From: Sarea resinae
Lineage: Eukaryota
Reading direction: 5' to 3'
Length of the DNA stretch: 20,000 nucleotides
Assembly (NCBI GenBank): GCA_026026165.1
Contig: JAPEUD010000100.1
Coordinates: forward strand, 57,290 to 77,289
Shown piece after piece: positions 1 through 20,000 of this stretch. The first letter of the stretch is position 1. Each line of letters starts with the position of its first letter. The position numbers and the translations under genes are program-made. The notes beneath the pieces are model-generated. The model made no database searches, was not told the DNA's origin, and saw only the letters and a list, made by a program, of their open reading frames with translations.

Positions 1-2835
1 TACGCAAGAGAAGCCGTTTGTATGCCAGTTCTGCTCTAAAGGCTTCACCAGACCGTATGTATCCATCCCGAGAGACCTGATAACAACGTGCTAATCTTCA
101 ACGGCACCCAGAGATCTCCTCAAACGCCATACCGTGGGCCATGACCCGGGCAGTGACAACAAGCGGCAAAAGCGACAGCATCCATATCGCAACTATCGAG
201 TGTCGAGGGCATGTGAGGCTTGTGCGAGGGCGAAGATGAAATGCGAAGAGAATAGACCGTGCGGCACCTGCAGGCGAAGGGGCATCTCATGCGAGTCCGA
301 GCCCGGGATCGACAGCACCTCGAGGGACGACTGTCTGGCGATGCCAGCAAGCGGTGAGGATAGTTCGCGACCGAGTAGTACGGAGGTGGTACTGACACGT
401 CGAAAAGATGAAATACCGGATTGGACTCGTACTTCACATTCCTCTTCCCAGACTCAGATGGCAGTCAATGAATACGATGACACGGACAGTCTTGAGACGA
501 TCCAATTGCAAACTCCAGCCACATTAGTGCAAGGCAAGAGCCCTCTGCGTCCCGAGATCTGAACTCCATCTAATTCCTTGCCACTGATAGACGAAGATAG
601 AGTTCTGATGGCGAATGGGAACTTCAGTCACCCCCCGAATAACCCCAGTGATGCGACGACGGCGCACCATTTCGATGCCAATCTCTTAAGGAGCGATCAA
701 GGTGCCCACGATCCGTCGTACAATCATTACGATATTGCCAATTTTGGATCGGAGATGAGTCTGGACCTCAACGATATAGATTTTGGCTTCCTGGACGCCC
801 TCAACGGGAGCACACCGTTCACGATCGACCCCGCGCAGGACAACGGTGAGGCATCCGAGAGACAAGGCTGTTCGAGTGCGCCCAGAGGGCTTATGCAGCG
901 GATAGAAGCTTACAAGAAATCTGGACTTACGCCATGGAATCCCGGCCATCAGGACAATGGGTTTTCGCACCAAAAGCATCTTTCCCTGCCGTCTCACATG
1001 GCGAACGAGCCAGGTTCCAACTTACACGAGATACATGGGCTAGGCCCTGTTGTCGAAGGACTGAAGCCGGGCTCCAGGGATAACATACTTGCAATGATCT
1101 TGAGCGGATGCAAACCTCGCGAGGCCCGTCGAATTGTGTCATCGTTCCCGTCAAACTCGCTATTGGACAGTCTCATGCAGTACTTCTTTGCAACTCAAAA
1201 GTCCCAGGTAGACTCTTGGATTCACGTTCCCACATTTCGGCCGAACTCGACGAAGCCCGAGCTTGTCGGTGCCATCATTGCCGCTGGCGCCATTCTGACA
1301 CCTATACTAACTATACGGAAATTGGGGTTCGCGTTACAAGAAGCAGTACGGATTGGGATTTGTCAGCTAGTAAATCTTCCTCTTCAAGGCCGATGACGGT
1401 ATTCTAATGCTACGCAGTTTGAGGAGGATAATTCTTTAACCAGAGAGCTTCAGATACTTCAAGGTTATGTTCTCCAGTTAGATCTCGGCCTCTGGAGCGG
1501 ATGCAAACGAAAGATGGAATTGGCAGAAAGCTTTGAACAGCCCTTGCTTACTGTATGTGTCGAAACGATTGGTCTACCGTCGCTGACTCGATCTAGATGT
1601 TACGTCGAGCGGGCCGATTCCGCCGATCCACCGAATCTTCCTTTGTGCCCTTATCCTCGGACGAGGGCGAGATCCTTGAGGCGAAGTGGCATCAGTGGGC
1701 TAAGCATGAGTCTTTCAAAAGGTAAGCAATGCCGTCAAAGTGTGTCACCTTCTAAGTTGTATATAGGCTCGTGTTCCATCTGTTCATTCACGATGCCCAG
1801 TCGTCAATATCGTTACTTGTGAACCCACTCATTTCCTATGCGGAACTGGCTCTTCAATTGCCCGACTCTCGAGACCTTTGGGACGCAGAGGACGCTACGC
1901 GATGGAAGGGCTTATATCTCTCGAAGATGCGCAACAATGATGAGAAAAGTCTATCGGCGGTTGATTGTATTCACGATTTGTCCTATCTCGGCGCATACCA
2001 CGAGCGAATTGATTTGCCCTTGTCTACTATGATCGTACTGCACAGCCTCTGGGGGTTGATATGGGAGTATCGTCAATTGAACTCCATCTTAAAAAGTCAG
2101 CCTTCGGTATGGAACGGGCTAGTACTCGATTCCCGTTATCAAGAGCTCTGTCAGGTGGTGAAGAATTCTCGCCTAAGCTACTCTGCATGGAGCGAACACC
2201 ATCAACGTCCGGAGATTGACATGTTTCTTGAGCTATTGCTCATGCATCTCGACATGTCCTTTGACGACATCCAGCTCTTTGCCGGAAAAGAAGATCGTGA
2301 AGAGGCTTGGAGAGTGATCCCGTCGTTGCGGCAATGGGTGTCGAGTCCCCGATCTCTTCGGGCAATATGGCATGCTGGCCAGCTTGTGCGAGCCGCCAAT
2401 CTGTTCCCGGCAAAGGCCCTACGGGACTTTTATTCAATCTGTGTCTATCAGGCTAGCTTGGCGTTCTGGGCATATTGTGTCTTATCTCGCAGCACGAAAG
2501 AGAAAAGCGGCGATGAAGGTGATGGAAACGGTTGTCGCATGACTGCGACCGATTCTCCATATATCTATCTCGACGGCCCAGATTCGCCCGATGTCCAACG
2601 ATTCATCGCACAGCAGCACGGGACACCCAGTCTTTCAGGTCTGCCATGTGATGAGAGGGTCACGGACGGTGCAAGACTCCCTTCTGTACCTTTGGACGAT
2701 TCACCCAAAGTGATAGAGATGCTCTGCACAATCCTGCGGCGTAATTGTGGCGACGAGCCTGTTCCACCACTGGTTGGAAACTTGATAGATCTGATGCAGG
2801 ATCTCGGTGCAGCGGCCACCGAGTCTTACTCGTGA
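1..2835 (+). CDS. Fungal transcription factor with C2H2 zinc finger + Zn(II)2Cys6 cluster + fungal-specific TF (MHR) domain; 5' end lies outside the window
   Basis: Exons <1-54, 112-533, 591-1369, 1418-1552, 1597-1721 and 1767-2835 splice in frame. Introns are 55-111, 534-590 (GC-AG), 1370-1417, 1553-1596 and 1722-1766. Translation gives [28 protein letters not shown] (C2H2), [28 protein letters not shown] (Zn2Cys6), and WIHVPTF / [17 protein letters not shown] / [16 protein letters not shown] motifs typical of the fungal TF middle homology region. Confidence 0.92.
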
Positions 2836-3458
2836 GAGTGTCTGGCGTTGATTATAGATGGCGCATGGGAAATGAGATGGGATGTATTGTTTGGCACGCG
2901 ACTCAGGCTCGGGCAATGGAAATCTTAGCAGAACAGCGCGCGCTTGATCGCTGTTTATCTAAATTCAAGTCATCAAATCCACGAACCTGCAATCTGACCC
3001 GCGAACTCGCCAACCATGTGACTCCCCTCGAACGGTAATGCTACTATAAGAATACTTCGTTCGTTGTAATCTTACTTATATTAAAATAGTCAATAATTTC
3101 TCAATGACTGAATCAACAACAAGAACACAACTAGGTATAGTCCAACATTACTCAAAACAAAAAACAAAACCAAATTTATCCTCGTGGGACTTTTAACGGA
3201 ATGTACTTATCAAGACTGTATTTTCTAATCTGTACGCAAGTTACTAGGGTGCGTGTAAGTTACTAGAGACTAAGAATATTTATCGCACATTGTCTAATTA
3301 ATTTAAATTTAGAAGCTAAGAAGGTGCCAATTAATCTGCCCACCCAATAAAGACAATCACTGCGCATAAATTTAAGCCTATTTGCCGTTGTTTGCTTTCC
3401 TTTCTTCCTTAAGCAGCAAATTAGCACGAAACTCCAACGCTCGAGTGCTACACGTACT

Positions 3459-4842
3459 CTAACTATCTAACTCTCTCCACAATGCTCTGAAACGAGCCAC
3501 TAAGCCCACGTCAGACACAAACCCCGTTTCGAGAATTTCCAGTGGCCGGACCCATCCTCGAGACCGTAATGCTAGCACCGCCCCCTTCAGCGTAGCCATG
3601 AACCACGCCCTATCCTGTGAGCCTTCACCTGCCGCAACGGCCCCCAACATCAGTTGACATGAAGTCAGAGTCATGAACAAGCATGGTCTGACTGGGAGCT
3701 GGCACCATGCTTCCCTGAGCTCGCCAGCGAGGAGTGTGAGATTTGCCTCTGGCTGCGGACACCAGGATAGATGGAGAATCAACTCGATCGCTCGTGAAGT
3801 TGCTTGGACAAACGGATTATCATCGAATCGAAGGGCTCGAGCCTGGCATAATAAGCTGTTCCACCACTTCTCGATTTCTTTGGCCTGAATGTCCGAGCCC
3901 GATGAATATTTGCGATGCCTATCTATCGACTTTCGCAACTGGACGAGGTTGTCGGAGATGTTCGCCACAATACAGATTGGCTGGCTGCCATAAGGACGTA
4001 TCTTGTCGATGATTTTCCTGTGATATGCCAAAGGAAAGTTAAAAACATCGTTTGTAGAATCCCTGGCAAGTTCGTTTAGCTTTGCCTCGATGCAGCAAAG
4101 GATATACAGACAAAAGGAGGAAATTACATAGCACTGGCGGCACATCAAATTCGCCCTGAGAGCGTCTCTCTGTGATGAGATTGGCAAGGCCATCAACATG
4201 AATGTTCCAAAGAAGGTCATTATGCATCAAGCGCTCTCCGATGGCCATGCTGAGCACTGCCCCAAGAACAGCACCAGTGTGAGCTGTTTCAGATGTGATG
4301 TGCTGGACAATGAGATTGGCAGCCTTGCACGAGTGGGCCACGGCTTTCTCTTGACATGACGCATCTGGCGACCAGTGCCGGATGCCTATGGCCATGGACA
4401 CCTCGGCAAGGGCTGCTTCCGAGACCAGCAGCTGGATCCAGGCTTCTTCATCGGGACTGCTGGGATAATTACCACCGTCCAGAAAAACCAGCGACCAGAA
4501 TCTCGCAACTACAGAAGATTAGCGGCGTATGTGGCCGACCGAGCTCGACCTCGAGGAATCCTTACGGAACTGGGCGTAGCGATACGGATCTTTTGGGGGT
4601 GTTGCGAGCGGCAAGTCTGTTAGCAGAGCATCGGCGGCTCCGTCCTGTGCCAGTTGCCTCTGCCCAATCCGCGCAAGTACACCCCTCTTCGCTTTTTCTT
4701 TTGCGGCTTCATTTCCGATGATCCGCTGGCGTCTGTTCGCAAAATTCGTCTTGGTGATGTGCGCCCGCATCAGCTTCGCGTCGGATCGAGATAGCGCCGG
4801 CGTACCGGTTGCATTGAGGAATGTGAAGCTCGTTGTGCTCAT
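3459..4842 (-). CDS. Conserved fungal protein (~425 aa), probable transcription-regulator-like protein with no Zn-cluster DNA-binding domain
   Basis: ATG at 4842. Exons 4842-4566, 4508-4112 and 4062-3459 join in frame through GT-AG introns 4565-4509 and 4111-4063 (1278 nt total). The N-terminus FTFLNATG...AKLMRAHITK..FANRRQR resembles the 'F.F.N...RSHV' start of Fungal_trans_2-like proteins, and the C-terminal helical region is similar. The function is inferred. Confidence 0.75.
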
Positions 4843-5292
4843 TCTCACTGCCTGCTTTAGGAAAATCAACTTCAGGGTGGTTTATTCCACGGAGTGATGT
4901 GGAGCTGTTGATATGCCATGTCTGGATGAGGACAATCAATTGATAAGCTCTAGGCGATTAGTGATCGGCAGTGCCCTACAAACGCGGACTCGGATACAGT
5001 CGCGTTTGACCCGGTTAGGAAAATCAGATTCAGACACGCGAGTGGATAGCTTCAACCTAGCGGTAGGCCCGTTGACGGCGACATGTACATACAATACCCA
5101 CCTTGAACATGGGCTCGACTGACACAAGTCGCCGACATTTCATCGCTTTGGCGGATGGCCACGATAATAATATATCCCACATGGACATGTATTTATACCT
5201 CGGGACACCCGTGGAGATGTGACTCTCCTGGTCAGGCTATTTGCAGACTTCTAATCGCAAGACTACATTACAATCAACTACAAGTCAATATC

Positions 5293-6429
5293 ATGTCTAG
5301 ACAATGGATCCTTGCGAGCCAGGAAGGCTTTGAGGCTTCTCTGCAATATCAGGAGAATGTCAGAATACCATCTCAAGATGAGCTTGGCTCCAATGGGGTC
5401 CTCGTGAAAATCCATGCCGCCAGCCTCAATTATCGCGAGCTCTCAATCGCAGATCCAAAGGCTAGTAGACTACCATGCTCAGAGTACTTAAGTGCGTGCT
5501 GACTCTCTCACCGTAACCAGGGTGTCAACGGACCAATCCAGCCCCCTATCATACCGGCATGCGACGGTGCAGGAGTCGTTCTAGTAATCGGATCATCTGT
5601 CCAGGAGTTCCAGCCCGGAGACCGAGTCGTCACACATTCAGCACCGAAGCTTGTGGAATCTAGCGGAGACAATGCGTCCGCAACTCTCGCAGATGCTCCT
5701 TTTATGCTGGGTCAAGGAACAGATGGAACATTGCGTTCCATTGGTATCTTTGCAGAAAAAGCTCTCGTCCACGCCCCTGCATCTTTGAGTTGGCTGCCGG
5801 CGGCGACGCTATCGTGCACATGGGCGACGGCGTGGAACGCACTCTTTGGAGTAGAAGGCAGAAAGGCCGGGCCGGGTATGTGGGTTCTTGTTCAGGGATC
5901 AGGCGGCGTGAGTGTCGCCACGCTTCAGCTCGCAGCAGCGGCTGGGGCTACGGTAGTGGCCACCACGTCGACCGGGGAAAAAGAAGCCCGTCTGAGGGCG
6001 CTTGGAGCGACGCACACGGTCAACTATCGCTCAATTCCCGATAGCTGGAGCCAAAAGGCTCGAAGCCTGACACCAGGCGGCATAGGGTTCGATATCGTCG
6101 TCGATATTGGTGGCAACCAGACACTGTCCCAGTCTTTGGCGGCCGTGCGTGTTGATGGGCTTGTGATATTGGTTGGAGCTGTGGGCGAAGACACGGCACC
6201 AGTTCCTCTGTCCGCGGCCTTCATGCATACTTGCATGGTGCGTGGCCTGCTTTGTGGGAGTCGGGCTCAGTTGAAGCAACTTGTGCGCTACATTGACGAG
6301 AAGGATATCCAGCCCGCTGTGGATGACGTCGTTTTCGAGCTTGCAGAGGCTAAGGATGCTTATAGACGCTTGAAGGAGAAGAAGCATTTCTCCAAGGTCG
6401 TTATACGGATTGAGCATCCAGACGCATGA
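5293..6429 (+). CDS. Medium-chain dehydrogenase/reductase (NADPH:quinone oxidoreductase / zeta-crystallin-like, MDR7-type), ~358 aa
   Basis: Exons 5293-5460 and 5521-6429 with a phase-0 GC-AG intron 5461-5520. Motifs VLVKIHAASLNYRE, PACDGAGVV..G..V.EFQPGDRV, AATLSC...TAWNAL, VLVQGSGGVS (nucleotide binding) and KHFSKVVI. The catalytic zinc GHE motif is absent. Confidence 0.93.
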
Positions 6430-7070
6430 CGGTCAAAGGTCTAGCGTAATAGCAAACAACGTATGTCAATTGATCAGATTGCTAGTCTTACACCGAAACA
6501 GGTGTGCTCTCTTTCCTGCGCGTCTCCTCTTTCAGCCACTCAGCTAAAGTTTAGCACAAACGCATTGATTGGGTCTCGCAGCTTGAGATCGGGCTGGTGA
6601 TTAGCTGACTGAGGCGGTGTGCTTGTAGGGCATCGCGATGTGGCGATGATATAAGGCCGTGTGCGATGTAGAAGTCGACGACCTGATGTTGAAATCGTTG
6701 GAGATGACGGTAGGATGTCTGACTTCGATGACGAAGAAGGCTGATGAATGCGAAGAGGTAGCCTGCCTGCAATCGATAGATCTTGAAAACATGACCCTCA
6801 TCACTAGCTAGATTGGTGTAGTAGTAGTACTCCGGAGTAGATTGAGGAATTGTGACAGTCATCGAGGCACCGCTTACTAAGCGATCCGATCATACTGTAA
6901 TTTACAGGCCACCAGTCATCCATGATGGATCTCCATCCCCACCTCCATCTACATCTTCCTCCCACCCCAGCCCCACCGTGGGGTGGTCGACCTGAACGCC
7001 TCATCCGCCTGTCGGTCTGTTCATGTCACCTGCTGCAGCTCAAGCGGTTCTTTCGACATTCGGGAACAGT

Positions 7071-8365
7071 ATGGCCGACTACGTCACAGTCAACGATCAT
7101 CTGGACCGACAACGACGTATCGACGACCGCATCCGGGCTTCTTTCGTCAACGTTCATGAGAAAGTCGACGTGAAGTTCGAGCATGCGGACCGGAGGTTTG
7201 ACCAAATCGACCGAAGATTTGAGCAGTTTGACCGGAGATTCGATAAGATCGAGGTGAAGTTGAGTGAGCACGACAAGCTTTTCCAACAGATCCTCTACCG
7301 CGACGAACGACGAGACAAATTGCAATACAACACCCTTGGCCTCGAGGAGCACCGATCCTATCGCACCCGTACCCATCTTCTCTCTGAACGGCGAGGAAGT
7401 CCCTCAGAACTTCCCTGATACAGTGGGCGGCTTTTGGACCCTGACACGACCTTATCGCAGTAAGCGCTTCTCTGACTGAGCCTCCTCATCATGCGCTGAC
7501 ATTGTCGATAGTCCAATCCTTGATTGACCTCGCCCAATTCTACCAACTCGATCCGAAAGCGTGGGGAAGGATGACACATGGGTCCGAAGAGGACTCGGAG
7601 TCCAGTACTCCGGATGAGGAGCGCCTCCCAACGGCAGTGCGGAAATACCCACTGGCATGGCACCGGACTCTAGCGTCACGACTAGGTCTGAATTATCACG
7701 AAATATCTAAGTCGATGGAGCAGGAAGAGGCATCTCGAGAGGCTCTCAAGCGGAAACGACCTCATCGAAAGCTGCAGGGCAGGGCAACAATCAAAAAGCA
7801 CACTATCCAGAAATTGATCGACGACATTGAGGAGGAGCAAGGAGAAGACGACAATCCAGACCAGGAGGACCTCGCGAGTATCGTGGAAGTGGTCACTGAA
7901 GCGGCAAGATCATTGAACGCAAGCTCTAAGCTGAGCAGTAAGACCAAATTCCGGCGAATGCTTCTCGAGGAGCTGATGCGCGGGGTTGACGAACAAGAAA
8001 ACCCACCCCTAGAGCGACCAGCAGCCCATGAGGCTGAGGATAGGGTTTTGTGGGATGACGGTCCGTCTCAGCCAAGAGACAAGTTCGTGTTCCGAGACCT
8101 TTATCCGCCAACGTCTATGGAGGAGCCAAGAGCGGAGTCAACACCTCACGAAAGAAAAGAAACAAAGGAAACAAACGAGAATCCGCACACCGAGACAACG
8201 GTAGAAGATCCATTGCCAGCGCAGATGTTTTTGGCCCGAAGCAAGCGGCAAAATAGCACGACTGCACGCTCCGTAAAGTCAAACTCGCGCGCGTTATCTA
8301 CAATCCCTACAATGTCTCCGGAGTCCTTGAAGTCCACCAAGTCCGACAGGTCCATACATGCTTGA
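7071..8365 (+). pseudogene. Coiled-coil protein gene (heptad stalk + putative Mug135/DUF1773-like domain + disordered tail) interrupted by one +1 frameshift near 7335
   Basis: ATG at 7071 (alternative 7023) opens the frame to ...DRRFDQIDRRFEQFDRRFDKIE...KLQYNT. The protein-like continuation LASRSTDPIAPVPIF...PQNFPDTVGGFWTL is in the +1 frame. A clean GT-AG intron 7460-7511 then joins in frame to QSLIDLAQFYQL...LASRLGLNY, ending at stop 8365. Removing one base gives about 413 aa. The gene may be intact if the indel is a sequencing error. Confidence 0.7.
7188..7250 (+). repeat. 3 x 21-bp coding tandem repeat (DRRF[DE]xx heptads)
   Basis: gaccggaggtttgaccaaatc / gaccgaagatttgagcagttt / gaccggagattcgataagatc. 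Confidence 0.9.
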
Positions 8366-9603
8366 CAGCTTTAACCCCCTACTTCAGGGCCCTGGCTTCG
8401 ATAAAATACCGGCGAGGGTACGGAGTGCGGTTTTCTTTTAGATTCTCACAACGCTGCGGGTTTTCCTCATTCGTCTACATGCATATCTTTCAGCGATTTG
8501 CTGTGGCAGCGACCCGGCGTGATACCATCATACTTATTATTTCCGAGGGCGCAACTGTTACAACAAGGATAGGGTCGGGTATCGGGATATCAGCAGGGTG
8601 TCGGGCCATTCGGTGTGGCATTTGGTACTGGCATATTTGGGGTTAGGGCGTCTATTCTTTTGGGTCGTTGTTCGATGATCACGATAGTCCTCAGTCATTA
8701 CGTCTGTTTTCTGCAGACCATAGCACTAAACATGAATGCAACTTGTTCTCTCTACCAATGCGGCCTCACTCGTCTGTGCTGATGCTCTTAATTGGGATTG
8801 CGGGAGACGAACGCTGACACTCAATAAACCCTACCGTTCTTTCTATTCCTCTTGTCCTAGTAGAGGAGTGTTCGTCTCTCTGACTGTCTTATTCAGGTCA
8901 GAGGTCAGTGCTATAATCTCTTCGCGCCTTGGCGCACGATAGGCGTCCTTGTATTGTGAAAATAAAGCCTGAATGCCGTTTAGTAATACCCTTATCAATA
9001 AGACTATATCTACCTACCTTACACAAGGAGATAGCCACGATCTGTGCTACTACTAATAGCCTAAGAATTAGTACGAGCCTCCTCGCTCTATAGGGTAGCT
9101 TCTAGCGATACCAGCTCGGCAGCGTCTACTCCGTACTACATAGTATAAACACAGCCGCGACAAGAGATGAATTTGCCCTGGAATATTCCCATTCGATAAT
9201 CTAGATCCCCGATCGCTTCAATCTATTTTCATAATGCCGCTCTGTGAATAGACAAGGATGGCGATGCCGGACAGCTTGCTTACGAGCTCGCGCGCGCGGG
9301 TGGCCTTATCCCGACTGGAATCAGATCGCCATCCTCCACGTAATCTAAGCTGCATCATTCTATCCTCGTCCAGCAAGAAGCGAATCAATACGAGATTCAC
9401 GGACTTGAGGTGGATTGGGATCGGCAGGCGAAGGGCGAAGGATGCACTTGTACCGCCGATCCTAGCAAGATCCCGACTCATCAGGCAACCGCGCAAGATG
9501 CCAGCCAAGCATCATCGCATGCGTGCGGTCCTCCTTAATACCCGCCGTTCTCCCCTCATCGCCTCGGGCGTACTGCGTCCTCGGTTTTTTTGCCACGATC
9601 AGA

Positions 9604-11611
9604 ATGGCCAAGGCTTTTGGGACCGCGTTCGCGGTCTTTTTCTTGATACACTGGCACTGCTTCATGACGGCTTCAGCTTACCCCACAAATCGGGAGCCGA
9701 TCGCGACACTTCGGAACGGTTCCTACCGCGGACTCCACTCGGAAGGCTACCGCCAGGACTTCTTTCTCGGAGTCCCATTTGCGCAGCCGCCTCTAGGCGA
9801 CTTGCGTCTCAGAGTACCGGAAAGCCTGAACAGTTCGTGGACCACCGCCCGCAATGCCACTGAGTACGGCCCAGCGTGTTACGGATATGGTGAGGACACG
9901 GCCATTGGTGCTGCCAATTATGTCAGTGAAGACTGTCTGACGTTGAATATCGTCCGCCCCGCTGGATATGCGGACAGCGCATTGCCAGTCGGTGTCTGGA
10001 TCTACGGGTCAGTACATCTCACACAAGGGAAGATGCTTTGAGACTGACCGACACATGTAGCGGGGGTTTTTACGAAGGCTCTAGCCTTGATCAGCGATAT
10101 AATCTGTCATTTATCGTGGAGCAATCCGTGGAAATTGGGAAGCCGTTCATTGCCGTGAGCATCAACTATCGACTCCAGGGCTGGGGCTGGCTGTACTCGG
10201 ACAAAGTTGTGGAAGCCGGAGTCGCCAACCTTGGCCTCCGAGATCAGCGGTATGGCATCCCGGCGTAATGTATCTGTACTGGTGATGCTAAGTTCTTTAA
10301 AGATTGGCCTTGCATTGGTTACAGGAGAATATCGGCGCTTTCGGTGGAGACCCTCAAAAAGTGACAATCTGGGGAGAAAGCGCGTAAGTTCACTTTTCTC
10401 TCGACATCTAGACGCCAGCTAAAGTAGCGGCAGTGGAGCGGTATCCGTTGGATTGCATCTACTTGCATACAACGGACGAGATGACCACTTGTTTAGCGGG
10501 GCAATAGCAGAATCTGGACCGCCTTCCGGAGTCGGTCTTATCAATCCTACGAAAGGCAAGTTTGATCGTTCAAACTAGTACTGCACGAGCCTGACCTTTG
10601 CAGAATTGGCGCAAGAGGCATGGACGAACGTCACCGAAGCTACAGGGTGCTCAAAAGCCCCCGACAAGCTCGCATGTCTTCGTCTTGTTCCGACCGAAAA
10701 GCTCAACGATGCTTTCAATTCCACGACAACGGAGGATGACTACTCTCTCTATTGGGGTCCACTTATAGATGGCGACATTGTTGCGCGCGGCGGCAATGAA
10801 CAGCTGCTAGATGGATCTTTTGTGAAAGTACCCTACATCCTTGGTGAAAATTCCGATGATGGAACCGATTTCTCCCCTTTCGGGCTCAATTCAGATGCGG
10901 AGTTTTTCGAATTCTATCAAGGATATGATATCGATAATGAGACGTTGACAGATCTGCTTGAACTCTACCCCAATGATGCGCTGGATGACATCCCCGCATC
11001 TTTCCCAGGAGAATTCAATCAGACAATCGGCCTCCAATTCAAGCGCAGCGCTACTCTGATTGGCGACATTGCCTTCAAGGCCCCGCGACGCCTGGCCGCT
11101 CAGGAGTGGAACAAGTACACCGATGCGCCTCTGTATAGCTATCGATTCAATGCCATCCCGAACGGCGTTCCGGATTACTATGGGGTCACGCATTGGCAAG
11201 AAGTACCATTCATGCTCCACAATGTGAACGGCTACGGATTCCCAAACGTGGATCCCCCCTACTTCGGCCCTGATCCGTTTGCGAATCGATCCGAGAGCTA
11301 CGTGCAGCTGGCAACCCTCATGAGTAGGATGTGGTCGTCCTTTATCTATGACGGCAATCCTAATTTTTTGAATCGTAAGTCCTTGCTTTCCTCACCTTTG
11401 CTCCATTTTCTTTGGGCTTTTCGGCTTATGCTCGTCAGAAAACGCACCTACCTGGCCGCCCTACTTTTCCGAAAGCCCAGTCAACTTCGTCTTTGACGCC
11501 AATGTCACAAGCCATCTCGAGCCCGACACTTATCGCGAAGAGAGTATCCAATATCTGGTCGAAAAGTATCGCAATGGCACGAACCCGTGGGGCCCTCATA
11601 GTCTGTCCTAG
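9604..11611 (+). CDS. Secreted type-B carboxylesterase/lipase (alpha/beta hydrolase, COesterase family), ~579 aa
   Basis: Exons 9604-10007, 10061-10249, 10303-10383, 10434-10555, 10604-11374 and 11439-11611 (1740 nt, in frame; intron 10556-10603 is GC-AG). N-terminus is signal-peptide-like. Motifs [67 protein letters not shown] (catalytic Ser), GENSDDG (acid) and GVTHWQE (His). Confidence 0.96.
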
Positions 11612-12410
11612 CACGAACCCTGCGAGCTGTAGATAGAACGCTCCTTGATATTCTTCTGGGGCCGTTCTAAAGTTAATCCACCGGTTGGAATAGTGCCATG
11701 GTTAATTACTTTGTCCCTTTAAAGAACAAAACCACCCCTAGCTGCACACTGAAAACCTTGCTTTTTGCCCTGCTATAACGCCAGGCTCCGTCGATAAATC
11801 AGAGGAACCTCTAATTGTGACAAGTGTCCGAAAAGAATTAATAGTCAACAAAAGCTCGCGACAAAGGTAAAAACTTGGACAACATCTTTCGCTAAAAGAG
11901 CGGGCAGTCAAATAAAAGCCAAAAACATACAGCAGCGGGTATTCGCTGGTCGTCACCGACCCAACTACTAATCCGCCGGTTTGTGGTTTGAGTACAGGAG
12001 AGCGGACGGGATCCTCTATATTCCACAACCTATGGTCGTATGTACCAAATTGTTACCTGTAATGTAATATAAACCACTTCTGCTTGGCTACGCATCATCG
12101 CATTCTAACACCTACCACTCAGGAAAACGGCAGACCCTTCGCATAAGCCGTCGTTGGCATCGCTCGGCCGCTCTCAAAATCTTTGCTCTGCCTAAGCGTA
12201 AGATACTGCCTAGTCTCTTAGTGCGTAGCAGCAGGTCTTCTACTTCTCTTCTTTGTTAGCGGCAAATTATTACAATCGCTGTAAGGGCGACATCTTTTTG
12301 TTGAGGATCTGCGCCTGTTCTTCGGCCCCAGAAGTGTTAAGGACATTGACATTGCCTGCTTACCTCGTGCAGGGTGTATCAAAGCCTGTAACGTGCCCAC
12401 CCAACCTGCG

Positions 12411-12683
12411 ATGAGAGTAGAAGATAGGATACTCGTCAGTGCGCCCAGGAAGCATCAGCCGGTCGTCGGTGCAGATCCGACAACCGCGATCTCGTCAGCC
12501 ACCAGCGATGTCAACCTGCGGTCCACGGCCGCCGCCAATGCCAACGTTGATGCTATTGTGGCTTTCCCCGCCAATGCATATGGCGATCATAAGCCCAGGC
12601 ACGCCAGACAAATGCAAGAGCAAGCCAACGCGGCAATCCTTGACCTCGTTAAAGCCGGCTGGGTCAAGCCGGACCCTGGGTGA
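12411..12683 (+). CDS. Small orphan ORF or exon, paralogous to 14899-15048
   Basis: ATG at 12411, with the frame open from about 12285. It shares 27/50 identical residues without gaps with the segment at 14899-15048. The true start is uncertain. Confidence 0.4.
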   Translation: MRVEDRILVSAPRKHQPVVGADPTTAISSATSDVNLRSTAAANANVDAIVAFPANAYGDHKPRHARQMQEQANAAILDLVKAGWVKPDPG

Positions 12684-13436: not shown

Positions 13437-13969
13437 TCACTCATCCTGTTCAACCAAATCAACGTGATCAAGTTCCTCGTTCTTGAACAGCCAACCAGTC
13501 ACACCGTCTTCCGCGTCCTCCTGTTTTTTCACGGGTGACTCGAAATTCTGGTATCCATTCTGTTGAAGCGCATCGTTGCCGCGAGAAGATTTCAACATGG
13601 CGGCTTCTTTCTTCTTCGAAGCGGTAGATCTGTTTGACTTCGGGGTCGACGCTTTCGTGACTCGGGTTTTGCTCGGTGTGCTGGGAGCAGAAACGTTATC
13701 GCCCTTGGTCTCGCGCTTGATCTTGTTGTAATGTTGACTTTGTAGGTATTTGGCATTAGCGCGATAGGATCAAGAGGCTAGGCGGCAGGGGGATCGGTAA
13801 GGTAAGAAGCGACAACTACCTGATTGAAGACTTACCGGCAAGCCTCTTGCGTAAAGCCTTCACCCATCTTTTCGGCGACAGCGGGCCAAGAAGGCGGCTT
13901 TGGGTTCACGATGTCAATGACGGCGAGAAGGAGCTTGCGCTCTTGAGCGGTATCCCAGGTGGCTGGCAT
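13437..13969 (-). CDS. Small Myb/SANT-like helix-turn-helix nuclear protein, 144 aa (not in the ORF track)
   Basis: Exon 1 is 13969-13836, the intron is 13835-13738 (GTAAGT...GCTAAT...AAG), and exon 2 is 13737-13437 (435 nt total). Translation: MPATWDTAQERKLLLAVIDIVNPKPPSWPAVAEKMGEGFTQEACRQHYNKIKRE, then an S/T/P/K-rich linker and an acidic tail. A TATTTAA element lies about 110 nt upstream. Confidence 0.88.
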
Positions 13970-14338
13970 GTTTACTTGCGAACGAGGGTGCTGTCGCGGG
14001 AAAAGACTGAAAGTGAAGGTTGAGTTGAAAAGAAGGTTGAGTCGGAGAGCATAATCATGTAGTGGGCGGGTGTCACAGCATTAAATACAGCAAAAGTCCG
14101 TGAATAAAGAGTACTGTAGGGTAATGTAACACACACACAAAGTGATATAGAGTGATATGATAAGAAACCTCTTAATATTAGTGAATAGTAAGCGTGTTAT
14201 AAGGCCAACTTCTAAGGAAAGTAAAGGAAAATGTAAAATACCTTCCATTTATATTGGATTGACTCTTTACAGACACAATAATCAGCACAACTCGACTACG
14301 CAATACCTCACGTCTATCACCCACTACCTGGAAGTAAA

Positions 14339-14623
14339 GTGTCGCAACCTATGGACATCTTGATGCTCGCTCATCGGAGCCAAACAGCTGTCGTGAGCGC
14401 ATCGACACTGCCAACGCTACCGATTTCAAAGCGAGCACAAAGGCCGCTCTTGATGCCAGTTCACGACTTGCGAGTCATTCATGGCCATGCTAAATCACGC
14501 AGCATTGTGTATTCGGCCGAGACGCAGCGTGTCATGATCGTGGACTTTGAGCGGTCTGAGATGCTGCCCTTACCAGAGAATGGCCAGCTGAAGGCGTCAA
14601 GAAAAATCACCGGAGTCTGTTGA
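14339..14623 (+). pseudogene. Degenerate fragment of a fungal protein-kinase-like (PKL) domain
   Basis: VHDLRVIHGHAKSRSIVYSAETQRVMIVDFERSE resembles the kinase-like C-lobe motif LHxxGVLHGDxxxRNI...RVMIVDFERA, but the catalytic D and N are replaced (H, S). The upstream part is AT/TpA-rich and not open. Confidence 0.6.
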
Positions 14624-14691: not shown

Positions 14692-15153
14692 GTCTGCGGA
14701 GCGAAACGCAAGTCAGCCTTTGAGGAACCCGCCTGGGTCTGCTACTGGAAACATCAATGTCCTTTAAAAAGTCCGCTTGGATGCCCGACTGGCAAAGCCA
14801 ATGACTTGAAGGCGGATCCGATCCAGGCTGCAGCCGATTGCATCAACCCGTCCACGAGGCATCGACTGGGAGTGAGGGCAGCAAACGCCAGGGCGGCACC
14901 GACAACTGCAGTCACGTTAGCCACCAGTACTGTCAACGTGCAGTCCACAGCCGCCGCTAATGCCAATATCGATGCTTATTGTAGTCCCACCATTAATGAC
15001 CACGGCGATCTTGATGCCAAGCACTCTGAACAGATGCTGGGGCAAGCTAGGAATTCCGCATTACAGAAGGCATTCCAGCGTGGACTCAACGAAGCAGCTT
15101 GGATTTTGGAACGCCTTGTGCGTCGCTATAAGGGCGCTCCCCCGAAGACTTGA
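14692..15153 (+). CDS. Orphan ORF/exon without ATG, paralogous to 12477-12626
   Basis: The frame is open from after TAG (~14691, a possible CATAG acceptor) to TGA 15153. It contains AKRKSAF (NLS-like) and the shared PTTA..ATS.VN..STAAANAN.DA module. Confidence 0.4.
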   Translation, partial: VCGAKRKSAFEEPAWVCYWKHQCPLKSPLGCPTGKANDLKADPIQAAADCINPSTRHRLGVRAANARAAPTTAVTLATSTVNVQSTAAANANIDAYCSPTINDHGDLDAKHSEQMLGQARNSALQKAFQRGLNEAAWILERLVRRYKGAPPKT

Positions 15154-15385
15154 TTGAGTTCCGTCTATCGTCGAGGAGGCCAGGCCTCGATGCTCACGCT
15201 TAGGCCGTCTATCCGCTCTCCAGGTTGGCCCATCAAATCCCGAGGACCTTGTGAGAGACAATCAGTCGTTCTCAATTCATATTCATCTTCAGCAAACGCG
15301 CCATTTGCGATCAATATCAAGGAGCGGGTGTCCATCTCTTCAGGAGCAGGAGACCCAGACCGCCTGATACTCCATATCAAGTCCT

Positions 15386-16062
15386 TTGTCCGATCATCTC
15401 ATCACTGAGCGTTACCCGTTTCCTGTAGACAACAGCCTAGAACCAGTTTCTTGGGCCCTTGAACAACCGACTTCGAACAGTGTACCATTTGCAACCCAAC
15501 ACAACTTAACGCAACTTAACAAAACCCCACCTCTTTCAAATGCAGTACACCTTCAAGACGAGACCAACGACAAAACACCTATTTCGAGCGACTATGATGA
15601 GACCATCGACCCCTCACGCATCCTTATAAAGGACGACACTGCTTCGCGATATTTTCGAGGCAGTCCTCCCTCGACCCTACCTCAACCCCATCTGCATTGC
15701 CAATGCCCGGGCTGCGAAAAGCTTTTCCTGAGGCAGTGCGATCGCAAGTGAGTAGAATCCTTTCCTAAAAAATCCTACTAGCTTCTAGCCTTGTGCTCCA
15801 CACAAAAGCTGACCACTCTCTATTTCTGTGAAGGGAACACATGAAATGCCACGTCCGGCCGTACAGCTGCCGTGTGCCAGGCTGTACCGCGCGGCCCTTT
15901 TCACTAAAGAAGGATCTAACGCGCCACCACTGCGCAGTTCACAAGCCGGACCCAACGAAATTATTCCAGTGCAGGATCGAGAACTGCACCAAGTACAGGC
16001 ACTGGTTTAATCGGAGATCAAATTTCGTGCGGCATTGCAGACAAAGGCACGCTGGTGCGTAA
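15386..16062 (+). CDS. C2H2 zinc-finger protein with three fingers; 5' end/start codon unresolved (possibly truncated)
   Basis: Intron 15748-15833 (GTGAGT...GCTGAC...AAG) completes finger 1, CQCPGCEKLFLRQCDRKEHMKCH. Finger 2 is CRVPGCTARPFSLKKDLTRHHCAVH and finger 3 is CRIENCTKYRHWFNRRSNFVRHCRQRH. There is an in-frame TGA at 15365-15367 and no ATG between it and the fingers. Confidence 0.8.
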
Positions 16063-16703
16063 TTTTAGTAGGACCTAAATGGTACTACTATAGCGCTGTT
16101 AGCGGGATAACTGTAAGAGGTAGAATTAGTAGTTCTATATTTATTTTCTCTATTATGCTTATATAGTCACAACAATTTATAATCACTGTCTTTACTGTGT
16201 GTAAATCTTCTCTAAGTGTAGATATTATCTATTTTTATCGCTCTTATTATTTAAAGAAGTTAACCTAACTTTAGTGACTAGTATAGTAGATAGTAATTAA
16301 AAGATCTTTTCTCCTATTATTAAACTATCTATATAAGTTATTGCTTTTAGAAGTATCTTAGCTTCTTATAGCTGTATTTAACCTATCTTTTACCTTTAAA
16401 ATTTAAGTGCATATAACTACCTTCTAAAAGCACTCTAATTCCTTATCTTTACACACTTAATATATATAGGATATAGGTTAGGATTAGAAGTTTTTAAAGT
16501 TAATTAGGATTTTCTAACTATAATAACTCTATAACTACATATTATATAGAGATAATTTTATAATAAGTTCTATTCTAATTTAATAACTCTAAAGATCTAT
16601 TATATTATTATATAATTATTTGTTATATATAATAAGATACACTAGTATAAGTGTAAAGAAGCTAATTCTATAAGTTTTTTAAGGTAAAAAGTAGCTATAT
16701 ATA

Positions 16704-16955
16704 GTTTCTTACTTATATTTCCTATTTTATTTCTTTCTAGTCGCTTATATTTCTTATTTAGTTTTCTCTCTAGTTACTTATATTTCCTATTTAGTTTTCT
16801 CTCTAGTTACTTATATTTCTTATTTAGTTTTCTTTCTAGTTACTTATATTTCTTATTTAGTTTTCTTCTAGTTGCTTATATTTCTTGTTTTGTTTTTCTC
16901 TAGTTATATATATTTCTTGTTTTATTTTCTCTCTAGTTGCTTATATTTCTTATTA
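16704..16955. repeat. 33-bp minisatellite, ~7.5 copies (ctagttacttatatttcttatttagttttctct)
   Basis: Unit starts (ctag) at 16737, 16770, 16803, 16836, 16868, 16900 and 16933, plus a partial copy upstream. Copies differ mainly by C/T and G/A transitions. Confidence 0.92.
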
Positions 16956-18102
16956 TCTACTCTTAAATCCTAAGTCTAATCTAAACTAATTCTTTTTAAC
17001 TAGGATCTATATTCTTATAGCATCTAATACACTATACCTTTTTAATATAGATACTCTAAGAAATATAATACTAAAGAGAAGCTATAAGCTATCTAGTAAG
17101 CGTTATAGTAGGGTTATTAAGTTAGTTAGTTATATAGAGAGTAGTTAAAGAGATAGGTTAGTGTAGCTGTTTATTATAGCATTGTTTCTTACTTTATAGG
17201 TAGCTTCTAGTTCTTTAGTTTATTATACAATTTAGTTTAAATCTTCTTACTAGTTTAAGTCTAGTAAGCTAGTAAGTTAGGTTATTTAAGTGCGTTTTAT
17301 ATTTAGTTCCTAATTATTTAACATATATATCTAGCGTCCTACTTCTACTGCTATTACTATATCCTATAGCCTACTATATATATCCTTTACTTCTTACTCT
17401 TAAAAGAGTAACTATTAAAGCCCTTTATATTAGTAACCTATATAGAGTATAAACAACTTAATCTAATATAAGGAATTGCTTAAATCTTTAGAGTATAAAA
17501 AGGTACCTAGTTAGTATTAAAGGGTTAGTGTAGCACTATATATAGTGGTATTAGAAATTAAGCACTTAGATAGAGACGCTTTTTACTAGCCTAGCTAGTA
17601 AAAAGACTAGGTCTTAAAAGTAGTGCAAGTAGTTGTTATAGCAACTATAGTAGTAAGATTATAATTAGCATATTATTTACTAGATTATAGTTAGGTTGCT
17701 TATACACTAAGAAGTGTTAGAGGTTACTAAAAGAAAAGAATTAAGAGAGTAGAGATAGAGAGAGGTAGTAAGGCGCGCTATAAATGCTATAGATATGTAT
17801 AGCATAGAGTAAAGTGCTACTATAAGAGTTATATAAGTCTTTTAGCTGATTTAGAGCTACCTTTAGGATTTATCTTTAGTTTCCTACTCTTTATTATAAT
17901 ATCTAACTCTAGAATAGCTCTATCTACTTTATCTAGTACTGTTCTAGCACCTAATATTATAATACTAGATATAACAATATAGTTAGCAACTACACTAAGG
18001 ATTAGAACTCTTATTAAATTAGCTACTCTAAGCTAAAAGAGTATAACCTCTTTTAAGTAGCTACTATAAGATAATATATAGCCTAGTGTATTTTAGGTTC
18101 TT

Positions 18103-19110
18103 ATACTACTACTTAGGTCTACTAGAGCACTCTATTTCACTAGGTAGAATATTACTAAATTCTTTAAGCGCTTTAACAATCTATATAATAAGTATTAAGT
18201 TAGTAAAGAGAAGTGTTTTAAGAAGTTGCTACACTATTGCAATAAATCTATAGGCCTTCTAATTAAATCAGCCACTGCCTACTAAGGTAGAGACTAGAAT
18301 ACTCTAGTCTATACACTTTATAAGGAATAGAAAAAAGAGGATATAAAGTAGTGCATTTACTTCTAAGAATTTCTTAAAGAGTATAAGAAGATATTATATA
18401 TATTAGTAGATAAGGTTCGCCTCTTTTACTAATAGTTTACTAGTATCTTAATAGAGCTAGTTAAGTATAGTGTCCTTAATAAATACACCTAGTGCAAGTA
18501 GTTTCTAGATAGACTTCTAGTTAAAATAAAGTCCTATATAGTGTAAAAGTCTAAAGTTAACTTTAAAGACTATAGTACTCTTAACTTTAAAAAGATACTT
18601 AATATAAGCCTTAAAGAGTGTAAAAGCATAGTAACTCTAGAGCACCTAGATAGGTAGTAGCCTAAGAAGAGTATTATAACACTTATAAAAGAATATTAAA
18701 GGCTAGAGGTGTATAATATAGCCTCTACTCTAGTAGCTCCTATAGTTCTTAAACTTTCTCTTACTCTAGCACTAGGTATAGATACTCTTATAAAAGCAAT
18801 AGAGGTGCTAGCTATACTAATTAAGGTTATATTAGTATAGCTTAAGAAAAGAGTAGTAGTGCTACTAAAAGAGAATAAAAGACAGCCTAACCTAGCACTC
18901 TAAGCACTTTATATACCTGCTAGTACTATTAATACAGTTAGTATAGCTAGTGCTACTAGTAGTAGTATAAGAGAGAGTAGTTTTACTTAGATATATCTTA
19001 TATACTAGTTAAGAGAGCACTAGAGTAAGTTGCGCTACCTAGTACTAAAAGAATTCTTAGACTAGAATAAAGTGTATCTTAATAACTTTAGAAGAGTATA
19101 TATTAGCTAG
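18103..19110 (+). mobile_element. RIP-inactivated Ty3/Gypsy LTR-retrotransposon gag relic
   Basis: Reversing C>T/G>A changes at 18103-18240 gives approximately MPPPGSTGAPYFTGQNVTEFFERFDNLCDEYQVGEEKRFKKLPHYC, a fungal Gypsy gag N-terminal motif. In the same frame, ~18994-19110 gives C-L-M-C...EH.....CP.L.E.....VHLND.GRVCIG, a zinc-knuckle-like motif. Element boundaries are not resolved. Confidence 0.7.
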
Positions 19111-19922
19111 ATAGCAGACTAGGGACTAGAAATCTCTATACTTTTTTAAAACTCTAGCACAACGTTTAGATAAGCTATAAGAGAGGCTATATAAGTAGAG
19201 GTAGTAAGGTTATATTGCTCTATACTAAGAGATATTTATATTACAGTGTTTAGAGTTACTTACCTTTATACTAAAGCAGTAGATATAGATAAAAAAGTAG
19301 AAGATATTACTAGCTTAAAAAAAGTTAGTGTAAATAGCGCTAGGCTAGTAGAGGTAGCCTAGTATTTATAGCCTAACTATATTGCAGCAGGTAATCCTAC
19401 TAGGATTAAAGAGATGTACTAGGTATATACTCTAACTACCTAGCCTTTAATTAGCCTACCTTGCTAGTAAAAAGTAGGATTAAGTAGAGTAGGATTAAGC
19501 AATTGCTACTGTGTTAAAATCGCCTCTTAACGCTGCTAGCTGCATCTCTAACCCTTAAGGAGCTGCCTTTCTATAGCACTTAATTAATTATCTGTTACTA
19601 TTAATGCTGTTTAGGCCTGCTTAACTCTCTAGAGTTATACTTAACCTTAGTTAGAGCTACCTTCTACTTATACCTCTAACTGCATTGCTACTAAGTAAGT
19701 AAGCAAGTAAGTAAGCATGCTCTAGGTAACTCTTAGTAGCTATAGCTACTTTTTTTAAAATAGCAACTAAGCGACTAACTAACTAGTTAAGCGCGCCCTA
19801 GGTAACTCTTTATAGCACCTTAAGAGAAGCAAGCCTTAGTAGTATCCTAACTATATAGCTAGTCGCTATCCTATCTAATACAGCTGTTTAATAATTAAAC
19901 TTCTAGACAGTCTAGTAGAAAA

Positions 19923-20000
19923 AGGGTTAGGGTTAGGGTTAGGGTTAGGGTTAGGGTTAGGGTTAGGGTTAGGGTTAGGGTTAGGGTTAGGGTTAGGGTT
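19923..20000 (+). repeat. Telomere repeat tract (TTAGGG)n, right chromosome end
   Basis: AGGG, then 12 perfect TTAGGG copies (19927-19998), then TT running to the end of the window. Confidence 0.99.

What the first reader, a model, noticed from the sequence alone, without database searches (positions are those of the whole stretch)
7071..8365. Subtelomeric coiled-coil protein resembling the Mug135/Tdk1 (DUF1773) family: candidate selfish or meiotic-drive-like gene
Seen: an N-terminal heptad-repeat stalk (DRRF[DE]xx x3, expanded as a 21-bp tandem repeat). It is followed by a compact domain, YN.LA.RS.DPI.PVP...GEEVPQNFPDTV..FW.L...L..LAQFYQL...LASRLGL, then an NLS-like KRKRPHRK and a long disordered tail. 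Known: S. pombe Tdk1/Mug135 is a killer meiotic driver built from a repeat coiled-coil stalk plus a DUF1773 (PF08593) head. Inference: the motif spacing recalls that head domain, and subtelomeres are typical homes for drive or incompatibility genes. This is the best candidate for an undescribed system in the window.
Basis: partly seen in the sequence, partly recalled or inferred. Interest (0 to 1): 0.7.

Follow-up and report, generated by a model that had tools for sequence, protein, structure and literature searches.

The report
Broken Tdk1-like gene in filamentous fungus
Near a chromosome end of a filamentous fungus lies a frameshifted copy of an unannotated gene family whose predicted shape matches the fission-yeast offspring-killing protein Tdk1, a domain reported as absent from filamentous ascomycetes; whether the family distorts inheritance is untested.

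Summary
The gene has a heptad stalk, a head of about 120 residues, a basic patch and a disordered tail, 11.6 kb from telomere repeats. It is broken by a +1 shift at 7335-7339 and has a 52-nt intron. Intact relatives in several Pezizomycotina lineages confirm the shifted frame (profile score 98 bits), and the shift is also in the read-derived contig.

No family member hits PF08593 (0 of 10). But a head model of an intact relative ranks both Tdk1 structures first among 48,161 PDB chains (Z 7.0 and 6.3, next 3.2). Foldseek found nothing significant. A parallel trimer is predicted (0.63, best control 0.02).

The genome holds one intact paralogue, also subtelomeric, 2 kb from a Spok-like gene. Two papers state that this domain is absent from Pezizomycotina.

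Tdk1's N-terminal Z-shaped domain is missing, and a non-driving relative of yeast Mrp8 (DUF3294) is a real rival. Verdict: a diverged Tdk1-fold family (homology about 0.85). This copy is probably dead; drive by intact members is about 0.35. The scan's earlier notes held nothing similar.

The parts
7071..7337 (+). Exon 1, ATG frame: short N-terminus, coiled-coil stalk and first residues of the head. An in-frame upstream ATG at 7023 would add 16 aa.
   Evidence: long helix in the model of relative P0035 (residues 28-95)
7188..7240 (+). 21-bp tandem repeat encoding the DRRF heptads
   Evidence: 2.5 copies, 78% matches; RF/KF at 7-residue spacing in 12 of 12 family proteins examined, from 2 to 14 such positions
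7335..7339 (+). +1 frameshift (one base more than intact relatives); the ATG frame then stops at 7416-7418
   Evidence: identical in the Logan contig of run X1 (depth 383, no indel)
7339..7459 (+). Exon 1, shifted frame: first half of the head (I.PV ... FPDTV..FW.L)
   Evidence: 24 bits alone against the relatives' profile, positions 11-54
7460..7511 (+). Intron, 52 nt, GT-AG, phase 1
   Evidence: same position and phase in the C51 paralogue (57 nt) and in L015 (57 nt). No RNA evidence.
7512..8365 (+). Exon 2: second half of the head with an acidic loop, basic KRKRPHRK patch, and a tail of about 210 aa
   Evidence: 59 bits against the profile; the tail of relative P0035 is mostly pLDDT < 50
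14459..14575 (+). Isolated fragment like the kinase-type end of the Spok-like protein on C51 (context, not part of the gene)
   Evidence: 29% over 42 aa, 33.9 bits; 0 of 100 codon shuffles reach it, max 25.4
16001..19922 (.). AT-rich subtelomere with RIP-like dinucleotide bias (context)
   Evidence: GC 0.20-0.38; TpA/ApT 1.5-3.4, CpG nearly absent
19923..20000 (+). Telomere repeat (TTAGGG)n at the contig end

Best explanation
This is a recently broken copy of an old, unannotated Pezizomycotina gene family that descends from the same ancestor as fission-yeast Tdk1 (Mug135_C/DUF1773 fold). Shown: the family, the conserved intron, the frameshift, and two subtelomeric copies in this genome. Predicted: intact members form a parallel coiled-coil oligomer capped by Tdk1-like heads, and they add an acidic loop in the head and a basic, disordered tail. 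Inferred (most likely mechanism): intact members are selfish single-gene toxin-antidote elements. The oligomer enters the nucleus by its basic patch, is deposited in all meiotic products, harms progeny that lack the gene, and is neutralised by freshly made protein of the same copy. Copies diverge (31% identity between the two here) and decay once drive pays no more, which is the state of this copy. Its likely products are a 115-aa stalk-only peptide or, by the public gene model, a 383-aa protein lacking half of the head. Separate odds: homology to Tdk1 0.85; this copy not functional as a full protein 0.85; family members drive or drove 0.35-0.4.
For: Head-only model of relative P0035 (pLDDT 85, pTM 0.78): Tdk1 chains 9JA6_A (Z 7.0, rmsd 3.1, 85 aligned, 19% id) and 9JA5_A (Z 6.3, rmsd 3.3) rank 1 and 2 of 48,161 chains, next Z 3.2. 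The match covers Tdk1 261-349, the whole DUF1773 range 268-340. Full model: 9JA5_A is first of 305 chains realigned (Z 6.3, 135 of 167 residues, stalk plus head), and is rank 2 by E-value and best by probability among the Foldseek rows shown. Atlas features and structure point to clusters with PF08593 or PF07957 members for both queries. Trimer of P0035 40-222: score 0.63, best of 3 controls 0.02; runs agree in at least 98% of contacts, pLDDT at least 81. That mark was reached by 21 of 30 solved homo-pairs and 0 of 23 single chains; for eukaryotes by 17 of 29 and 0 of 30, but by only 1 of 7 with no older solved relative. Genomic traits reported for tdk genes (PMC12930445: chromosome ends, pseudogenes, internal repeats, divergent copies) recur here: 2 of 2 copies found lie within about 30 kb of telomere repeats, 1 of 2 is broken, and repeat number varies widely. 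The intact copy is about 2 kb from the only Spok-like match in the genome. MAT1-1-1 is present with no HMG-box match on its contig among 8 matches, and RIP-like ends suggest outcrossing sex.
Against: No PF08593 hit for any window piece, for 10 of 10 relatives or for the paralogue. No Tdk1 hit by sequence in the PDB at E <= 10. Foldseek gives E 1.2 for the full model and does not show Tdk1 in the rows listed for the head model. Z of 6-7 is within the range the tool calls common. All Atlas scores are under 0.9 (leads only), and DUF3294 scores as well as PF08593 (0.86 versus 0.84 for the paralogue). Tdk1 needs an N-terminal tetramerising domain to make toxic assemblies (PMC11551426, sections 6-7), but the window protein has only about 80 residues, nearly all stalk, before the head, and no PP motif. 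Only two copies were found, not the 6-24 of fission yeasts. Most tdk homologues tested in PMC12930445 did not drive (2 of the first 15, 0 of 6 more). The models are of a relative (37% identity in the head), not of this protein. The trimer pass may reflect any coiled coil or likeness to solved Tdk1; dimers and tetramers were not tested.
Confidence: 0.4

Rival explanations
1. The family shares the Tdk1 fold but does an ordinary job as a non-driving coiled-coil scaffold, like budding-yeast Mrp8 (DUF3294). This copy is a dispensable accessory gene that decayed in a subtelomere, as many such genes do.
For: Atlas ranks the DUF3294 cluster (92% PF07957, 219 aa) at 0.80 and 0.86. Mrp8 is 219 aa with a coiled coil at 7-116 and is listed as an eisosome interactor (PMC3128537, two table passages), so it starts with a stalk and has no separate N-terminal domain, like this protein. 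The intron position is conserved in 3 of 3 loci seen as DNA, which fits long vertical descent. Copy number is low.
Against: No PF07957 hit either. Subtelomeric position of both copies, a broken copy, 31% identity between paralogues, variable repeat number and a Spok-like neighbour fit genes in conflict better than a conserved scaffold. That Mrp8 itself is not a driver is recalled, not tested.
Confidence: 0.35
2. The family is a selfish or self/non-self element of another kind: a vegetative toxin-antidote or heterokaryon-incompatibility factor that stabilises a subtelomeric or mobile block, acting in mitosis or hyphal fusion and not through meiosis.
For: Self-oligomerising stalk, divergent paralogues, subtelomeric sites, and a Spok-like neighbour. 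Spok toxicity also shows in vegetative cells (PMC6660238 passages).
Against: No HET, NLR or other known domain in the protein. No DUF3435 captain match on contigs C3 or C51 among 5 matches in the genome. The two neighbourhoods share no DNA by blastn.
Confidence: 0.13
3. The likeness to Tdk1 is convergent: a small helical head on a generic heptad stalk, unrelated by descent.
For: No significant sequence or Foldseek match; Z under 8; the repeat is shared with many unrelated proteins.
Against: Tdk1 was named before the search and took ranks 1 and 2 of 48,161 at about twice the next Z, with the head alone. The domain order stalk-then-head is the same. Two Atlas queries converge on the same two fungal families.
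Confidence: 0.1
4. This locus is intact in practice: the shift is an assembly error, or is bypassed by the longer intron of the public model (about 7369-7511) or by +1 recoding.
For: Only one lesion in 413 codons. The public annotation gives a 383-aa product. The ATG frame ends in CCC-TGA, which recalls +1 shift sites (from memory).
Against: The Logan contig of X1 is identical across 6000-9264 at depth 383, though probably from the same sample. The longer intron has a weak donor and removes conserved profile positions 11-48 (60 versus 98 bits). CCC-TGA is a by-product of the conserved FPD codons, and shifting there would skip 25 conserved residues.
Confidence: 0.1

Closest known systems
Schizosaccharomyces pombe Tdk1 (Mug135, SPCC330.04c) and the tdk family; Pfam PF08593 Mug135_C / IPR013902; PDB 9JA5, 9JA6
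   Same: Repeat-containing helical stalk leading directly into a head with the same predicted fold (Z 7.0, 85 residues, about 19% identity); predicted parallel three-helix coiled coil; chromosome-end location, divergent paralogues, broken copy.
   Different: Below PF08593 detection. No 111-residue N-terminal domain, Z-shaped domain or PP linker in this protein. About 40 extra residues in the head (85 of 125 aligned), mostly an acidic loop. A 110-210 aa disordered tail with the basic patch after the head, whereas Tdk1 ends soon after the head and has its predicted NLS at 67-93. One conserved intron. Found in Pezizomycotina, where PF08593 is reported absent. Drive untested.
DUF3294 (PF07957), budding-yeast Mrp8/Ykl142w type
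   Same: Coiled coil from the N-terminus followed by a domain that the Atlas places next to this head (0.80-0.86).
   Different: No PF07957 hit; lacks the long tail (219 aa). No solved structure was compared. A link between DUF3294 and Tdk1 is my inference from Atlas clusters that carry both families, and is not mentioned in the main text of PMC12930445.
Podospora Spok spore killers (for the neighbour on C51, not for this gene)
   Same: 932-aa frame with N-terminal coiled-coil repeats, a D...EYK nuclease-like motif, a C-x3-C-x13-C-x5-H-x8-H cluster (paper motif: x7) and a kinase-like end.
   Different: Unrelated to the Tdk1-like protein. Assigned by motifs and domain order only; no SPOK sequence was aligned.

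Membership tests
tdk / Mug135_C (PF08593) | Profile match to PF08593 (IPR013902) | tested here: not met
   No hit at E <= 10 for 3 window pieces, the exon-1 read-through and the public model, or 10 relatives; none at E <= 0.1 for the paralogue frame. The fully spliced read-through could not be scanned against Pfam.
tdk / Mug135_C (PF08593) | C-terminal globular domain with the Tdk1 fold | tested here: met
   Model of relative P0035: 9JA6_A Z 7.0 and 9JA5_A Z 6.3, next 3.2, of 48,161 chains. Foldseek not significant. Predicted model of a relative only.
tdk / Mug135_C (PF08593) | Long repeat-containing helix directly before the domain, forming a parallel coiled coil | tested here: met
   Helix 28-95; stalk plus head aligned to Tdk1 211-349; trimer 0.63 versus control 0.02. 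Prediction only.
tdk / Mug135_C (PF08593) | Separate N-terminal region with Z-shaped domain and PP linker | tested here: not met
   The window protein's head starts near residue 79 and no PP precedes it; 3 of 14 family sequences have a PP before the head. The N-terminal 27 residues of P0035 are modelled at pLDDT 43-61, so the question is open for longer relatives.
tdk / Mug135_C (PF08593) | Several divergent copies per genome, pseudogenes, enrichment at chromosome ends | tested here: inconclusive
   2 copies found, both within about 30 kb of telomere repeats, 1 broken. Counts are lower bounds; positions of the relatives in their genomes were not seen.
tdk / Mug135_C (PF08593) | Post-germination killing of non-carrier progeny with self-protection | not testable with these tools
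   Needs crosses.
tdk / Mug135_C (PF08593) | Nontoxic tetramer versus toxic trimer-based assembly | not tested
   Only three copies were folded; one complex job was available.
DUF3294 / Mrp8 (PF07957) | Profile match to PF07957 | tested here: not met
   No hit. The own-genome search was empty but its control was silent too.
Spok (neighbour on C51) | Coiled coil, PD-(D/E)XK nuclease, C-x3-C-x13-C-x5-H-x7-H cluster and kinase, in that order | tested here: inconclusive
   Order and motifs are seen, the cysteine cluster with x8 in place of x7; kinase only as a weak APH hit, E 0.04. No alignment to a SPOK protein.

The most novel reading that the evidence does not exclude
[quoted passage not shown] It has no Z-shaped N-terminal domain but an acidic head loop and a disordered tail, sits in subtelomeres and can cluster with Spok killers. 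Together with DUF3294/Mrp8 it would fill both reported gaps (Pezizomycotina and Saccharomycetaceae) in the family's patchy range, making the range an artefact of profile sensitivity.
Probability: 0.3. Interest if true: 0.85.

Novelty: new variant of a known kind. Interest (0 to 1): 0.6.

Why it matters
PMC11551393 and PMC12930445 state that DUF1773/IPR013902 is absent from Pezizomycotina (0 of 832 species), and the latter explains the patchy range by repeated loss or horizontal transfer. A structurally matching family in at least six named Pezizomycotina genera, with a conserved intron, suggests the gap is partly a detection limit. That bears on whether tdk drivers are as old as the fungi. It gives cloneable intact genes (the C51 paralogue, P0035) for a direct drive test. 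It also tests which parts of Tdk1 are needed, since these proteins lack its N-terminal domain. The window's own copy is probably a dead remnant.

Tried and rejected
Pfam scans of window pieces, the exon-1 read-through, the public model, 10 relatives and the paralogue gave only generic coiled-coil hits. PDB sequence searches found no Tdk1. Own-genome searches with PF08593 and PF07957 were empty, but their controls were silent, so they say nothing. Foldseek on the head model found nothing at E <= 0.001. The wide VIA search of the full-length model failed on the machine side and was not repeated; the head model was searched instead. Word-index homologue searches were shallow: 1, 6 and 2 proteins, so the family's range and copy numbers are unknown. 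Metagenome scans gave 0 loci and 1 locus of 2.5 kb, so neighbourhoods in other species, including any link to Spok, could not be tested. No RNA holder listed. Runs X2 and X3 did not cover the gene. The head tree (14 rows) has only 2 of 11 well-supported inner branches and does not place the window protein. A Starship captain was not found on C3 or C51. Programmed +1 shifting at CCC-TGA was considered and rejected. P0047 was picked as a possible relative but did not match the head profile and was left out of alignments. Five look-ups in the scan's earlier notes gave nothing relevant. Literature searches: tdk1 + meiotic driver, domain names (one further search timed out), Spok domains, organism biology. 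None listed a paper reporting Tdk1-like proteins in Pezizomycotina; subscription journals are mostly not covered, and supplements were not read.

Full report
Setting. The window is the last 20 kb of contig C3 (77,289 bp) of a 25.5-Mb fungal assembly. It ends in TTAGGG repeats after about 4 kb of AT-rich, RIP-like DNA. The protein search returned this locus's public gene model, a 383-aa hypothetical protein labelled Sarea resinae, a Pezizomycotina fungus (title of PMC7451776).

Anatomy. The ATG at 7071 opens a helix-prone stretch with three DRRF heptads, encoded by a 21-bp repeat. That frame stops at 7418. The conserved-looking head continues in the +1 frame from about 7339, is interrupted by a 52-nt GT-AG intron (7460-7511), and runs on into exon 2 with KRKRPHRK and a long tail. 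Read through with X at the shift, it is 413 aa with no stop. The public model avoids the shift with a longer intron (about 7369-7511, my inference from comparing) and loses the first half of the head.

The shift is real and the shifted frame is the ancestral one. The Logan contig of run X1 is identical over 6000-9264 at depth 383; this run may be the source sample, so it checks the assembly, not the population. A search of 1.84 billion representatives gave 432 hits, of which 150 were listed; 10 of the 149 non-self rows carry the head, and the rest match mainly the repeat. Named relatives come from Thelocarpon, Rhinocladiella, Trypethelium, Usnochroma and Zopfia. A profile from nine relatives, none from this genome, scores the read-through at 98 bits over positions 4-128 of 130, against 60 bits for the public model. 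One lesion in an otherwise open 413-codon frame suggests a recent loss (inference).

A second copy. Protein searches of the genome find one paralogue, on C51 at about 382.1-383.3 kb (counts are lower bounds). It is intact (400 aa), 31% identical over 212 aa, and has an intron at the same place and phase, as does metagenome locus L015. C51 also ends in telomere repeats about 30 kb away. If the genome has 20-40 chromosome ends (an assumption), such zones are 2-5% of the assembly. About 2 kb downstream, convergent, lies a 932-aa frame with Spok-like order and motifs (motif from PMC6660238), the only match to itself in the genome. The window holds a short fragment like its kinase-type end at 14459-14575 (33.9 bits; 0 of 100 shuffles reach it). 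The two neighbourhoods share no DNA by blastn. One adjacency in one genome is suggestive only.

Relation to Tdk1: sequence tests fail. There is no PF08593 or PF07957 hit for window pieces, the public model, 10 relatives or the paralogue, and no Tdk1 chain in PDB sequence searches.

Relation to Tdk1: structure tests largely succeed. The model of P0035 shows a helix at 28-95, a confident head and a disordered tail. Foldseek ranks Tdk1 9JA5_A second by E-value (1.2, not significant) and best by probability among rows shown. Realignment puts it first of 305 with 135 of 167 residues, the only row at Z 4 or more that covers the head. To remove the helix's contribution I folded the head alone (pLDDT 85): 9JA6_A and 9JA5_A rank first and second of 48,161 chains at Z 7.0 and 6.3, next 3.2, covering Tdk1 261-349. 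Foldseek shows no Tdk1 row for this model, and Z under 8 can be a common arrangement, but the hit was named in advance and stands at about twice the background. ESM Atlas neighbours of both P0035 and the paralogue are fungal clusters with PF08593 (16-18% of members) or PF07957 (92%), all scoring under 0.9. Three copies of P0035 40-222 give a parallel coiled coil, score 0.63 against a best control of 0.02 (calibration counts and caveats under Best explanation). This may reflect likeness to solved Tdk1 or any coiled coil.

Differences. Tdk1 has a 111-residue N-terminal domain, a stalk and a head that ends the protein (PMC11551393, passages). Its toxicity rests on a mismatch between an N-terminal tetramer and a C-terminal dimer of trimers (PMC11551426, sections 6-7). 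Active tdk proteins share a Z-shaped domain and a PP linker (PMC12930445). The window protein has about 80 residues before the head and no PP; 3 of 14 family sequences have one. The family adds an acidic loop in the head and a tail of 110-210 aa. So it is not filed as a tdk member. In layout it is as close to Mrp8 (219 aa, coiled coil 7-116; PMC3128537).

How it most likely works. Intact members probably oligomerise through the stalk and present Tdk1-like heads. The selfish toxin-antidote reading is preferred slightly (0.4) over a non-driving scaffold (0.35). The reasons are that the only characterised proteins with this fold are drivers and that the genomic traits match those reported for tdk genes. 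The fungus shows signs of outcrossing sex: MAT1-1-1 downstream of an APN2-like frame (name recalled), no HMG-box match on that contig among 8 matches, and RIP-like ends. Against this stand the missing N-terminal domain, the low copy number and the fact that most tested tdk homologues did not drive. This copy, broken in the head, is most likely inactive.

Novelty. PMC11551393 and PMC12930445 report the domain as absent from Pezizomycotina; the main text of the latter does not mention DUF3294, Mrp8 or Foldseek. My searches listed no paper on such relatives; subscription journals are mostly not covered.

What I saw of each paper: PMC12930445, parts 1-4 of 8 plus passages; PMC11551426, abstract and sections 6-7; PMC11551393, PMC6660238, PMC3128537 and PMC7451776, passages only; others, search listings only. 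No supplements were read; the preprint's Supplementary Data 2 could bear on the range claim. Verdict: new variant of a known kind, interest 0.6.

Noticed in passing
L009:1328-4126 (G000:C51:385328-388126, minus strand): Intact 932-aa Spok-like frame (coiled-coil repeats, EYK motif, cysteine cluster, kinase-like end), convergent with and about 2 kb from the intact paralogue; the only match to itself in the genome.
   Followed up: partly
window 14282-14623 (+): Isolated fragment resembling the kinase-type end of that Spok-like protein; no other part of such a gene was found in the window.
   Followed up: partly
L013, G000:C51 about 368,300-371,600 (+): Frames that look like an Argonaute (PAZ/PIWI, recognised from memory), about 11 kb upstream of the paralogue.
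   Followed up: no
window 12285-12683 and 14692-15153 (+): Two short frames that resemble each other by eye (T...SDVN/TVN...STAAANAN.DA...H) and have no Pfam hit; possibly decayed duplicates.
   Followed up: no
window 13437-14080 (-): Small intron-split gene beginning MPATWDTAQERKLLLAVI, a Myb-like fungal protein by recall.
   Followed up: no
window 15368-16062 (+): Frames with C2H2 zinc-finger-like Cys/His spacing just before the RIP-like region.
   Followed up: no
window 1-11600: Typical subtelomeric accessory genes: probable Zn2Cys6-type regulators at 236-2835 and 3459-4842 (recalled), a zinc-binding dehydrogenase (5704-6429, PF00107) and a carboxylesterase (from 9604, PF00135).
   Followed up: no
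window 16709-16954: 33-bp AT-rich tandem repeat, 7.5 copies, in the RIP-like subtelomere.
   Followed up: no
G000:C28:21132-22364, C35:422993-423256, C104:95559-95984: DUF3435 (Starship captain family) matches with internal stops.
   Followed up: no
L020/L021, G000:C17 about 29,300-35,700: Mating-type locus with MAT1-1-1 downstream of an APN2-like gene and no HMG-box match on the contig, consistent with a heterothallic strain.
   Followed up: partly
ESM Atlas results: One cluster carries both PF07957 (16%) and PF08593 (10%) members, hinting that DUF3294/Mrp8 and Mug135_C are one clan.
   Followed up: no
P0028 and the public frame of the C51 paralogue: Both appear to be annotated with the conserved intron read through in frame (16 and 19 extra residues), which may hide family members from profiles.
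   Followed up: no
P0001 and P0035: Sarea and Thelocarpon both have many-spored asci (recalled, not confirmed by the passages read), which would make spore killing hard to see by counting.
   Followed up: no
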